Below are positions 1,735 through 49,992 of a stretch of 64,000 nt of DNA, in pieces. Each line of letters begins with the position of its first letter. Within the stretch, counting starts at the first letter, position 1. The notes beneath the pieces were generated by a model. The model did no database searches and was not told the origin of the DNA. It saw nothing but the letters and a program-made list of their open reading frames with translations. This DNA comes from Octopus vulgaris (lineage: Eukaryota). Position numbers and translations under genes: made by a program. The stretch spans positions 15,314,001-15,378,000 of the forward strand of contig OX597814.1 of NCBI GenBank assembly GCA_951406725.2, given 5' to 3'.

Positions 1735-1818
1735 TACATACATACATACATACATACATGCGTAAATAAATACATACATACATACATACATACATACATA
1801 CATACATACATACATACA
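1735..1818. repeat. (CATA)n microsatellite at the 5' junction of an R4/Dong-like LINE
   Basis: Tandem CATA units ending where LINE homology begins. Confidence 0.95.
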
Positions 1819-2218
1819 TGCTACTGATCTGTAGGAGACATACGTTCCATAGACGTTAAACCCGCAAGATACTGACTTCAACTGCAAATCTCTGAAATAG
1901 TGATATCCACTTAAGGAGGGATAAATGCGGCAGAGACTTGAGATTAGTGCATACAGCCGTTGAATGTCGTATAATCTCTCTCAGATAGCACTTGCTAAAC
2001 AAAAGCAGCAAAAATAAATACATTAACTTAGTGCTGATAAGAGAAGAGAGCAATATCCTCAGTGAGCCCCTCAAGGAGCATTCTCTTCCTGATGAGCTCC
2101 CATACAATCACAAAACAGCCGAACTAAGATACTTCCACGAACACCTAAATGTGAAACTCTCAGCGTAATAACAAAGAACCATGTATGGGTACGTTTCCCG
2201 AATAACTGAACAGTAATA

Positions 2219-2332
2219 CTCTTTCTATTATAAGCATAAAGCCTGACATTTTCAACTGGTACTCATTTTATCGACCTCGAGAGGATGAAAAGCAAATTCG
2301 ACCCCGGTGGAATTGGGAACTCCGAACGTGCA
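2219..2332 (-). mobile_element. SINE family A fragment (A2-type tail)
   Basis: Degenerate match to the family A core (GTCGACTTTGCCTTTCATCC...GTACCAGTTG on the minus strand). Confidence 0.7.
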
Positions 2333-2339
2333 GATAAAA

Positions 2340-2556
2340 TACCTATTTCTTTACTACCCACAAGGGGCTAAACATAGAGGGGACAAACAAGGACAGACAA
2401 ACGGATTAAGTCGATTATATCGACCCCAGTGCGTAACTGGTACTTATTTAATCGACCCCGAAAGGATGAAGGCAAAGTCGACCTCGGCGGAATTTGAACT
2501 CAGAACGTAACGGCAGACGAAATACCGCTAAGCATTTCGCCCGGCGCGCTTACGTT
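2340..2556 (-). mobile_element. tRNA-derived SINE family A (A1 tail), 5'-truncated
   Basis: Near-identical to copies at 3059, 3868, 32714, 38875 and 49464; B-box GAGTTCAAATTCC on the minus strand. Confidence 0.9.
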
Positions 2557-3058
2557 TTTCTTCTTTTCTTCTCTTCTTTGGAGGTTTCGGCGAGGTCCAA
2601 AGAAGAGAAGAAAAGAGACAAAAGAGGCAATTGTCCGACATGCTAATGATTCTGCCATCCATGAAGAAGACAGTGATATCGACATGAAAAGAAACCTCTC
2701 TTGGACATGTGGCCGCTACATCACAGCACACTTCGAAGACTATGCATTTGCAATCCAAGGACGGGACAGATTACGTCATATATCTGTGCGATGTGCTAAC
2801 ACATCACCCTTGTTGTGTTAAGCAGCTATCCAAAAATGTCATCAAAGTACTACCTCCCGATATGACGCGACGTGGTCACAAAAAACGATATACAATGTCA
2901 TTCGGGAAACAGACTGCCCTGGACTAAATATAGAGAATCCCCTTAATATTGAATGCATACACAAACATCAGCAGAAAGTATACTAGTTTAATATTCCCAT
3001 CATTTACTCCTGGGATAGAAAGACAATCTTTTACTCTTCGTCGGAAATTCTGAAAATA

Positions 3059-3292
3059 TATATTTCTTTACTACCCACAAGGGACTAAACACAGAGAGGA
3101 CAAACAAGGACAGACAAAGGGATTAAGTCGATTACATCGACCCCAGTGCGAAACTGGTACTTTATTTATCGATCCCGAGAGGATGAAAGGCAAAGTCGAC
3201 CTCGGCGGAATTTGAACTCAGAACGTAACGACAGACGAAATACCGCTAAGCATTTCGCCCGGCGCGCTTACGTTTCTGCCAGCTCGACGCCT
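3059..3292 (-). mobile_element. SINE family A1, full length, with TSD
   Basis: Pol III A-box-like TGGCAGAAACGT and B-box GTTCAAATTCC; flanked by AAATTCTGAAAAT (3045-3057) and AAATACTGAAAAT (3295-3307). Confidence 0.92.
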
Positions 3293-46239: not shown

Positions 46240-47465
46240 GTATCTTCTATTTTCTAATTATGATATACCCTCCACCGAGGAGGGAGCCAGTTTCCAACAA
46301 AGATACAAGGCACCATCATTGGGATGTAGTTAACACAGAGAAACTTACATTTGAAATCTGGGAAAAGTCTTGCATATTTTTTACTGTACCACTCACATAT
46401 TGCACTTGTAATGTACGAATTAGCCGGTCGATTTCTCTTCCTGAAAATCCCAGTTTATCCAGATTCTCCTTTAAGCATTTACCAACAAAACCTAGTAGTA
46501 TTATTGGTGCGAATATGAATTCGTAATCTGGATATAGTAGTTGGAAGTTTCTAAGAAGTTTCATAGATATCCTATTTATTTTTCATTTTCAAAGATATAC
46601 TTATATCTGCAGGGTAGTTGACCTCTATGATAGTACATACCTTTGCAGACTCGTTAGCACGCCGGGCGAAATGCGTAGCCGTATTTCGTCTGCCATTACG
46701 TTCTGAGTTCAAATTCCGCCGAGGTCGACTTTGCCTTTCATCCTTTCAGGGTCGATGAATTAAGTACCAGTTACGCCCTGGTGTCGATATAATCGAAATA
46801 ATCCGTTTGTCAACCTCTCTGTTTAGCCCCTTGTGGGCAGTAGTGAAATACATACCTTTGCCTCTCTGTCCCAAACAACAATAATCGGCCTGTTATGTTT
46901 ACATTTGCCGGAATTTAATGGGAATATTCCACCAGTATTCCTTGAGTTGGTGTTTATGAATGTATTCCATAACAGAGGGTTTTTCTAAGTTTATTTCAGA
47001 ACAGTCTTTTTGCAGATTGTATTGTAAGTTGTTTTAGCGATAACATTGTGCCGCATAGGGAGGTAGTAGCATGATGACACTTCAGAATGGCTGCTAATCA
47101 CATGCGTGATGTCTTCCAGAAGAATGACATAGCCTGCACATGCGGTTGCACCTTGAGATTACAAGAGCGTCAATGTCTCTCTTGTCCCAGAATTGCAAAC
47201 GAATAGCCTTCAAAGTGTGATGTGATGTAGTGGTCTGGTGCCCAAGAAAGGCCGCGTTTCGTGTCAATTCTACTGTCTTCTTCAGGCTTCTGGGCAACAT
47301 ACCAATGCATAGTCTTTATTTTTTGTATGCTGGTCTTCTCTTTTCCATCCAGGTTTTCTCTCAGGTAAGAGAACCCAGCTATTTTGGGGCTGTATAGGAG
47401 CTCATCAGGATGAGAGTGCTTTTTGAGGAGCTCAATGCAAACTTGTATAATGTTGCTCACTCTAC
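46240..47465 (-). mobile_element. 5'-truncated R4/Dong-like LINE (copy 2) with zinc-knuckle and RLE domain
   Basis: YITSHFEGYSFAI, CRLCHSS, frameshifted HNRP/IVVWDR, IIEVNYPAD, LRNFQLLYPDYEFIFAPII..GFV; homologous to 1819-3322; 5' end abuts (CATA)n. Confidence 0.85.
46647..46848 (+). mobile_element. SINE family A1 nested in the LINE, 13-bp TSD
   Basis: TACATACCTTTGC at 46634-46646 and 46849-46861. Confidence 0.92.
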
Positions 47466-47466
47466 A

Positions 47467-47845
47467 TATGTATGTATGTATGTATGTATGTATGTATGTA
47501 TGTATGTATGTATGTATGTATGTATGTATGTATGTACGTACGTATGTATGTATGTATGTATGCACGTATGTATGTATGTATGTATTATTGTATGTGTGTA
47601 TGTATGTATGTATGTATGTATGTATGTATGTATGTATGTATGTACGTACGTACGTACGTATGTATGTATGTATGTATGTATGTATGTATGTATGTATGTA
47701 TGTATGTATGTACGTACGTACGTATGTATGTATGTATGTATGTATGTATGTATGTATGTATGTATGTATGTATGTACGTATGTATGTATGTATATACGTA
47801 TGTATATATGTATGTATGTATGTATGTATGTATGTATGTATATAT
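47467..47845. repeat. (TATG)n microsatellite with TACG variants
   Basis: About 380 bp tandem array. Confidence 0.97.
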
Positions 47846-49463
47846 ACCGCAAAAAAATGATATTTGTCAGAAATATATCGAAAAGAAAAGTGTAAAAGTA
47901 AAACGAAAATAACTTCATGACATCCGCTTCAGTTACCTCACCAAGATTTGGTGGATATGAAGACAGGGCTAGCAAAAAATCCTAACATATTAATACAAAC
48001 AGTGAAAGCAAAAATATTCACTTCTGATTTCATAAACATATACTTGTTTACGTATTCGATTCGCCATCTCTTCGCTCTTCCTGATCTTTCTCATTATATT
48101 TCTCGGTTTATATATGTGTGTGTGTGTTTGTATGTATGTATGTGTGTGTATGTGTGTGCGTGTATCTATGTATATATTTATAAACATTGCATAAAATGTA
48201 CGGTAACTATACGTTTGTGCTTATATGCTATAATCTTTTTATGAATAAATAACTACAAAACAACATGGGAAGCCTTTGCTTTTCTTTGATACCCTAGATT
48301 CTTAGTATCTAATAAAATACTTTGGTTGTATATTGTAGCATAACATGTGTGTGTATATATATGACTACATGCATATTTATATACAATATGTTATTATAAT
48401 ATTACATACTTTATTCAATACTAATAGGAAAATGAAAATAATGTATATGTGTGTTTCGATGTATTCATGAATTCATAAATAACACTACTTGATAAATACG
48501 AAATCATATGATTACTATATAAATCTTATTTGCTATCGAGATTTATATGTACCTGTTTGCGTGTGCGAAATAGTACGCTTCTGTCTTCATATACATATGT
48601 ATACCTATATATATATATATATATATATATATATATATATAAATATCAATATATATTTCTATCTATCTATCTATCTATCTATTCATACATGCATACATAT
48701 ACATATATTTATATATTTATATATGTATATAAATATATATGTATATATATATATATATGTATATATGTATATATACATATATATATATATATATATATAT
48801 ATATAAAACTTAAGTAAATATTTATGGGTAAATTTATATGTATGTACTTATTGTATATTCATGTATAATGTGTTTATACACCCCAACCCGTATATATATA
48901 TATATATATATATATATATATATATATAATACAATAATAATATAGTATATATATACAATAATATATATATATATAATACAATAATAAATACAGTACAGAC
49001 AGTAACCTATAACATATGCAAAGCGTAGTGACAACAAATTGCAATTTTCAAGTAATATTGTGGCCATACGAATTCCTCTCGGGCCACGATAGTAAATTCA
49101 TTAACAATACCAATAATAACATTATAAGAATACTTTAGTGAAATGCACTATAGGACTAATAAATATCAATATTAAAATTCATACCGTGGACATTCGAGAA
49201 TGCCAGGAGTAGATCAGTGAAAGAGATACAAATATTTGATAGATTACATGTTGTGATTTAACCATCCCTTATTATCAATTACGTCACCAATATCAATAGA
49301 CATTTAACTGTCTGGCTACTTCTGTTAATCTATCGTCAAGCAATTAAGCATGCGAATTTACATACATAAATACATACATACATATATATATATATATATA
49401 CATACATACATATATATATATATATATATATATATATATATATATACATACATATATATAGAA

Positions 49464-49680
49464 AGGCGGCGAGCTGGCAGACTCGTTAGCACGCCGGACG
49501 AAATGCGTAGCCGTATTTCGTCTGCCGTTACGTTCTGAGTTCAAATTCCGCCGAGGTCGACTTTGCCTTTCATCCTTTCGGGGTCGATAAACTAAGTACC
49601 AGTTACGCCCTGGAGTCGATGTAATCGACATAATCCGTTTGTCCCCTCTGTGTTTACCCCCTTGTGGGCAGTAGTGAAAT
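49464..49680 (+). mobile_element. SINE family A1, full length
   Basis: Family match; shares GCAGACTCGTTAGC and GGCAGTAGTGAAAT variants with the 46647 copy. Confidence 0.92.
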
Positions 49681-49883
49681 ACATATATATATATATATAC
49701 ATACATGAAATCATTCATTTAAACAAGCATACATACATACATACATACATACATGTATGTATGTATGTATGTATGTATGTATGTATGTATGTATGTATGT
49801 ATGTATGTATGTATGTATGTATGTATGTATGTATGTATGTATGTACGTATGTATGTGTGTGTGCATGTGTGCGTGGGTGCGTG

Positions 49884-49992
49884 ATTATTCAGTTTTATTT
49901 GAAGATTTCTGGCCAGTAGAGAATGAGCCGGTTTCTAACCTAGATCCAAGGCTCCTTTATTAGAATTTCAACATCAACAACAGGGTATTTTT
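49884..49992 (-). mobile_element. Solo 3' UTR of the R4/Dong-like family (copy 3) between TATG repeats
   Basis: GAGCCGGTTTCTAACCTAGATCCAAGGCTCC resembles GAGCCAGTTTCCAACAAAGATACAAGGCACC at about 46284-46314. Confidence 0.65.

What the first reader, a model, noticed from the sequence alone, without database searches (positions are those of the whole stretch)
1735..49992. R4/Dong-like retrotransposon family apparently targeting (CATA)n microsatellites
Seen: three related copies (1819-3322 +, 46240-47465 -, 3' UTR only at 49884-49992 -) are truncated at different 5' positions. In element orientation, copies 1 and 2 begin immediately after long (CATA)n arrays and copy 3 after ATACATAC. Copy 1 ends in TATACATACATG, copy 3 runs via a short CA-type stretch into (CATA)n, and copy 2 has only a degenerate GATACATGC. 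Known: R4-clade elements use a restriction-like endonuclease and several are site-specific (Dong targets TAA repeats). Inference: this is a strand-oriented (CATA)n-specific lineage, possibly with a new endonuclease specificity, and it may be linked to the abundance of these arrays.
Basis: partly seen in the sequence, partly recalled or inferred. Interest (0 to 1): 0.7.

Follow-up and report, generated by a model that had tools for sequence, protein, structure and literature searches.

The report
CATA-repeat-targeting branch of Dong retrotransposons
A distinct old branch of Dong-type jumping genes sits in runs of the four-letter repeat CATA, nearly always facing the same way, likely because its enzyme targets that repeat; its known cousins use TAA repeats instead.

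Summary
The core claim holds; several details do not. The three window pieces belong to three related, decayed R4/Dong-type families (A, B, C), not one. Genome-wide, 60 of 104 5'-truncated copies start right after a same-strand (CATA)n run and 2 after the opposite strand; full-length copies 30 of 35. Controls: RTE-like LINE 1 of 26, SINEs 1 of 56 and 1 of 29, random DNA 51 of 3000. A young TAA-type Dong here gives 8 of 9 TAA, 0 CATA. A and B fall in a separate 27-row branch that includes intact metagenome elements flanked by (CATA)n at both ends, and others by (CTTA)n. Corrections: copy 1 has no 3' end; copy 3's ATACATAC is an internal 3' UTR tract, into which later copies inserted. Only 6 of 41 sampled CATA arrays touch these elements. 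Target duplications, empty sites and cleavage were not shown. Ten searches found no printed CATA-targeting Dong, but key papers and Repbase were unavailable. The scan earlier noted only the TAA-type Dong, in another genome.

The parts
1707..1819 (+). (CATA)n array 5' of copy 1, the likely target
1823..3002 (+). Family C fragment (end of RT thumb/linker region to the CCHC region); 5'-truncated, interrupted by SINEs, lacks the endonuclease catalytic region and 3' UTR
2254..2557 (+). SINE fragment (2254-2329) and SINE (2344-2557) inserted in copy 1
3061..3290 (+). SINE after copy 1; not part of the LINE
46240..47461 (-). Family B copy, 5'-truncated, with CCHC, endonuclease region and complete 3' UTR
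46645..46850 (-). SINE inserted in copy 2
47467..47838 (-). Long (CATA)n array 5' of copy 2
49881..50080 (-). Family A copy, 3' UTR only: pre-tract part, short internal CATA tract (about 49993-50000), 109-bp terminal module
50090..50113 (-). (CATA)n run at the true 5' junction of copy 3
49756..49880 (-). CA-rich stretch and (CATA)22 run 3' of copy 3

Best explanation
These are decayed copies of three families from a distinct branch of R4/Dong-type non-LTR retrotransposons that sit in (CATA)n microsatellites in one orientation, likely because their protein recognises and nicks that repeat. Shown: one ORF (Myb-like N-terminus, reverse transcriptase, CCHC finger, PD-(D/E)xK-type endonuclease); CATA on both sides of full-length and truncated copies; a fixed 3' phase (GAC then ATAC); use of arrays that existed before the insertion in nested cases; a separate branch with CATA- and CTTA-flanked relatives elsewhere. 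Inferred from R2 biochemistry: the protein binds the array, nicks the TATG strand and primes reverse transcription at the RNA 3' end, possibly helped by CATA units on the RNA. Early stops give the 5'-truncated copies. Family A carries a CATA tract in its 3' UTR, so each copy adds a landing site. In this genome the branch looks extinct, while TAA-type Dong families are young.
For: 5' flank with at least 14/16 match to CATA: truncated A 24 of 35, B 26 of 43, C 10 of 26; opposite strand 0, 0, 2 (binomial p 8e-16); full-length A 24 of 28, B 6 of 7. Controls: SINE1 1 of 56, random 51 of 3000; RTE-like LINE 1 of 26 (Fisher p 3e-7), SINE2 1 of 29, TAA family E 0 of 9 CATA and 8 of 9 TAA; TAA family D 3' flank 19 of 20 TAA, 0 CATA. 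Systematic 400-kb sample: 4 of 5 copies. Nested insertion into the family A tract: 4 of 139 junctions against about 0.2 expected (p 6e-5; 2e-3 with a cautious background); L242 shows the split-off module of the older copy after the insert. Relatives L201 and L206 are intact with CATA at both ends; L208 and L209 have 3' CATA. Tree branch SH-aLRT 100. Fold closest to R2.
Against: 44 of 104 truncated junctions miss the CATA threshold. No excess of target-site duplications over shuffled pairs in 83 copies. No empty site found for 75 copies in the local pool. The 3' array cannot be split into tail and target. No cleavage assay. The tree has no named R4 or Dong reference, a midpoint root, SH-aLRT only, and uses working consensus proteins for A and B. 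Most copies were top-scoring hits, not random ones. The metagenome evidence is 7 contigs of unknown host, and CTTA is seen on only one side of each of three.
Confidence: 0.82

Rival explanations
1. Tail-guided rather than endonuclease-guided targeting: the endonuclease is loose, and an RNA 3' (CATA)n tail selects sites by pairing with exposed TATG 3' ends.
For: Fixed 3' phase: ATAC is the first four bases in 22 of 36 A and 15 of 27 B ends. 7 of 48 A copies stop inside the internal tract without the terminal module, which internal priming could give. Some inserts lie only 2-4 units after an older copy's end.
Against: The 7 module-less copies could equally be deletions between two CATA runs about 110 bp apart. 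R4-clade elements are described as mostly target-specific (PMC4640811, passages). The N-terminal Myb-like motif is conserved.
Confidence: 0.3
2. The arrays are made by the insertion itself (repeat synthesis or template jumping at the 5' junction, then slippage), not found beforehand.
For: No empty sites or target duplications were shown. Internal tracts of family A expanded to 0-319 bp after insertion, so arrays do grow beside these elements.
Against: Insertions into the pre-existing family A tract are enriched, and L242 shows a split tract. 35 of 41 sampled arrays have no detectable element beside them.
Confidence: 0.1
3. Passive co-occurrence: LINEs and microsatellites pile up in the same regions.
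For: The genome is rich in microsatellites.
Against: Strand bias 60 against 2. TA, CA and TG arrays are rarely at the junctions although TA and CA arrays are more numerous. Other LINE and SINE controls are 2-4%. Same motif and strand in foreign relatives.
Confidence: 0.02

Closest known systems
Dong (R4 clade; Bombyx, Anopheles, Biomphalaria, Darwinula)
   Same: Single ORF with RT and restriction-like endonuclease, Myb/SANT-like N-terminus, microsatellite target in fixed orientation (PMC7998251 and PMC3812793, passages).
   Different: The published target is (TAA)n. The TAA-flanked families D and E in this genome are about 33% identical to A in the RT-to-C-terminus part and lie on the other side of a long branch.
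Octopus 'Dong-R4' repeat class
   Same: Abundant in Octopus vulgaris: 51 families, 92.7 Mb, 5 recently active (PMC13282606, passages and one supplement file). A, B and C are probably among such families (not checked against the library).
   Different: The paper's main text has no occurrence of 'target site', 'CATA' or 'TATG', and the one supplement file held has none of 'target site' or 'CATA'.
Waldo (R1 clade)
   Same: Targets ACAY microsatellites, which include the same ACAT/CATA repeat (PMC3812793, passage).
   Different: Uses an AP-type endonuclease and is an unrelated clade, so the shared target would be convergence.
R2 retrotransposon
   Same: Closest solved structure: Foldseek E 9e-35; VIA Z 31.2, rmsd 4.8 over 785 residues. 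It is the model for the mechanism.
   Different: Targets 28S rDNA and has N-terminal zinc fingers; 16-20% identity.

Membership tests
R4 clade non-LTR retrotransposon | Single ORF with reverse transcriptase | tested here: met
   PF00078 at E 4e-26 to 9e-23 in intact relatives L206, L201, L203; long frames in working profiles of A and B
R4 clade non-LTR retrotransposon | C-terminal CCHC finger plus restriction-like PD-(D/E)xK endonuclease, no AP endonuclease | tested here: met
   CxxC..H.xxxC, RHD, RPD..E, K..Y conserved in A, B and relatives; model aligns to R2 through the C-terminus
R4 clade non-LTR retrotransposon | N-terminal Myb/SANT-like domain without zinc fingers | tested here: inconclusive
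   Three-helix bundle at 22-79 of the L206 model; W/W/L motif shared with TAA family D; no Pfam Myb hit; the single-sequence domain model was poor (pTM 0.31) and was not searched
R4 clade non-LTR retrotransposon | Groups with named R4/Dong elements in an RT tree | tested here: inconclusive
   No named reference was available. The branch is much closer to TAA-flanked Dong-like families (34% over about 1000 aa, E 1e-150) than to R2 (E 4e-27; different databases)
Dong (TAA-specific lineage) | Inserts in (TAA)n | tested here: not met
   0 TAA flanks at A, B or C junctions
Dong (TAA-specific lineage) | Clusters with TAA-flanked families | tested here: not met
   Separate 24-27-row branch, SH-aLRT 100
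Sequence-specific retrotransposon | Same target on both sides, one orientation, also in 5'-truncated copies | tested here: met
Sequence-specific retrotransposon | Defined target-site duplication or empty site | tested here: inconclusive
Sequence-specific retrotransposon | Sequence-specific cleavage by the encoded endonuclease | not testable with these tools
   needs a biochemical assay

The most novel reading that the evidence does not exclude
An unnamed, deep branch of the R4 clade specialised for four-base repeats, still intact in other organisms, which uses (CATA)n in most members and has switched to (CTTA)n in one sub-branch; one family here builds its own target into its 3' UTR and so seeds landing sites for itself and its relatives.
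Probability: 0.45. Interest if true: 0.7.

Novelty: new variant of a known kind. Interest (0 to 1): 0.55.

Why it matters
Microsatellite targeting by Dong is known only for (TAA)n in the papers I could read. Closely related intact proteins with CATA, CTTA and TAA flanks form a natural series for asking which part of a restriction-like-endonuclease retrotransposon reads the target: the Myb-like domain, the endonuclease or the RNA tail. It also shows that the abundant 'Dong-R4' class in this genome is at least two lineages dividing the microsatellite space, one apparently extinct and one young.

Tried and rejected
Target-site duplication test: no excess over shuffled pairs (83 copies). Empty-site search in the local pool: 0 of 75. 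Copy 1 3' end at 3322: rejected. The 109-bp module as a separate SINE: rejected, because it follows the family A 3' UTR within 900 bp in 34 of 48 copies and aligns to the family B 3' UTR. Intact CATA-branch copy in this genome: none among the best-scored candidates (40 of 97,709; 142 of 41,962), which is not proof of absence. Rfam on 10 loci gave only repeat-driven matches below the gathering scores and no ribozyme. No relatives in prokaryote or viral collections; the first metagenome scan was empty. Cluster look-up gave no host names, and the protein Atlas held neither query, so host range stays open. One search was mis-aimed and returned a SINE family, which I reused as a control. Literature searches showed no CATA-targeting Dong. 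Five papers were not held.

Full report
Setting. The window is G000:C1:15314001-15378000, in a 2.8-Gb animal genome. It looks octopus-like from its SINEs; that resemblance is recalled and no call tested it.

Observation. All three pieces are real R4/Dong-type fragments with a same-strand (CATA)n run directly 5' of them. They are three families, not one. Copies 1 and 2 are 69% alike, and the 109-bp copy-3 piece matches neither by blastn. Against working family profiles, copy 1 is family C (1823-3002), copy 2 family B (46240-47461) and copy 3 family A (49881-50080). Copy 1 stops before the endonuclease catalytic region. The ATACATAC before copy 3's last 109 bp is an internal tract, present at that point in all 30 loci fetched. 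The true 5' junction is at 50080 and also follows a CATA run.

Families. A is about 4.03 kb and B about 3.84 kb. Both end in GAC followed by ATAC units. Median identity to the working profile is 91% (A), 93% (B) and 83% (C). Five copies in a systematic 400-kb sample imply roughly 35,000 genome-wide, range 11,000-82,000. No intact copy appeared among the best-scored candidates, so the branch looks extinct here; only 40 of 97,709 and 142 of 41,962 candidates were scored. The same searches found two young families with intact ORFs of about 1230 aa, D (98.7% alike) and E (98.3%), flanked by (TAA)n. They fit the canonical Dong and serve as an internal control.

Flank test. A flank counts if 14 of 16 bases in the 30 bp beside the junction match the repeat. 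Truncated 5' junctions: A 24 of 35, B 26 of 43, C 10 of 26 CATA; opposite strand 0, 0, 2. Full-length: A 24 of 28, B 6 of 7. Truncation points are spread over positions 1864-3714 in A and 38-3414 in B, so the 5' array cannot be a fixed element-encoded leader or tail. Rows dropped: three window copies, two query loci, four duplicates, five mis-chained loci, loci whose element ran to the edge, A junctions inside the 3' UTR, and one 5'-end hit starting at base 46. The earlier count, which still held most of these B and C rows and the A query locus, was 24 of 35, 31 of 48, 13 of 29, 25 of 29 and 6 of 7. Controls: random window DNA 51 of 3000, SINE1 1 of 56; RTE-like LINE 1 of 26, SINE2 1 of 29, family E 0 of 9 CATA and 8 of 9 TAA; family D 3' flanks 19 of 20 TAA. 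In the systematic sample 4 of 5 copies had a CATA 5' flank. Complete 3' ends met the threshold in 23 of 45 (A), 16 of 30 (B) and 7 of 16 (C); 5' and 3' run lengths did not differ (66 pairs, p 0.32). Against: 44 of 104 truncated junctions miss the threshold, which may be decay, deletion or looser specificity.

Target or product? Target duplications were not detectable (83 copies) and no empty site was found (0 of 75). Nested insertions give a partial answer. 4 of 139 junctions lie in the 3' UTR tract of an older A copy, against about 0.2 expected (p 6e-5; 2e-3 with a cautious background), and 6 more lie just after another copy's 3' end. One label (L077) was false on inspection. In L242 the older copy's terminal module follows the inserted element, so the tract was split; in the other three that module was not found. 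The tract expands after insertion (median 51.5 bp, range 0-319, 34 copies). 7 of 48 A copies stop inside it without the module, by internal priming or by deletion.

Array abundance. Of 41 CATA arrays in 400 kb, 6 adjoin an A, B or C piece on the same strand and none on the opposite strand (15%, interval 6-29%). The elements add arrays but are not shown to be their main source; very old pieces could be missed.

Relatives. A protein search gave 20 close relatives (34-49% by the alignment) above a gap. Of 10 metagenome loci, L201 and L206 have intact ORFs with (CATA)n at both ends, L208 and L209 have it at the 3' end, L203 has (CTTA)n at the 5' end, L204 and L205 have it at the 3' end, and three show no flank. 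In trees of the RT-to-C-terminus part, A, B, L201, L206, L203 and L204 fall in one branch (SH-aLRT 100) apart from D and E (quick method, midpoint root, no named reference; 14 rows left out). L209 is nearest the other sub-branch (63% to P0016), so CATA may be ancestral for the branch; that is an inference from one contig. One named member is an Argonauta hians hypothetical protein; other hosts are unknown.

Protein. RT domain, CCHC finger and PD-(D/E)xK-type motifs, a three-helix N-terminus with the tryptophan pattern shared with family D, and R2 as the closest solved structure. The mechanism, inferred from R2, is binding of the array, nicking of the TATG strand and target-primed reverse transcription from the RNA 3' end. 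Whether protein or RNA tail selects the site is open.

Literature. Read as passages: PMC3812793 (Dong targets TAA; Waldo targets ACAY), PMC7998251 (R4/Dong Myb-like domain; TAA target in most insects, molluscs and cnidarians), PMC4640811, PMC8967140, PMC13580325, and PMC13282606 (Dong-R4 abundant and partly active in O. vulgaris, no target data in main text or the one supplement file held). Ten searches listed no CATA-targeting Dong. Not held: Kojima and Fujiwara 2004, PMID 26104700, Fell 2025, Biedler 2015, Xiong and Eickbush 1993. Repbase could not be checked, so prior naming is possible. An earlier scan note (e1-9592150) describes AAT-targeting Dong in another octopus-type genome; it agrees with families D and E and does not cover CATA.

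Verdict. Real, strand-specific association with (CATA)n in a distinct R4/Dong-type branch: a new variant of a known kind. Interest 0.55.

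Noticed in passing
   Followed up: partly
L180-L200 and L311-L330: Two young Dong families with intact ORFs of about 1230 aa, flanked by (TAA)n, often next to other Dong copies.
   Followed up: partly
5' ends of families A and B, L201, L206, L203: A short GG(A/C)CGTG-like motif near the 5' end and long predicted hairpins in the 5' UTR; no Rfam ribozyme match. 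It could be a structured 5' RNA module.
   Followed up: partly
L203, L204, L205: Relatives flanked by (CTTA)n instead of (CATA)n, a possible one-base target switch.
   Followed up: partly
window, 16 places, e.g. 2344-2557, 32710-32939, 38875-39099: An abundant SINE of about 230 bp, often in tandem with itself or in AT-rich repeats, without CATA preference.
   Followed up: partly
window 58368-58587 and 58889-59120: An inverted repeat pair, 86% alike over 233 bp and about 300 bp apart, probably a MITE.
   Followed up: no
window 20081-20488, 27077-27496, 37838-38230, 39107-39510 and others: A second frequent repeat family of about 400 bp.
   Followed up: no
L017, L019, L021: A shared stretch of about 170 bp sits inside the family A 3' UTR tract in several copies, possibly a short element that also uses this site.
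   Followed up: no
family A and family E 3' ends: Both end in a similar AATAAAAC(TAC)TGAATAAT motif although the proteins are distant.
   Followed up: no
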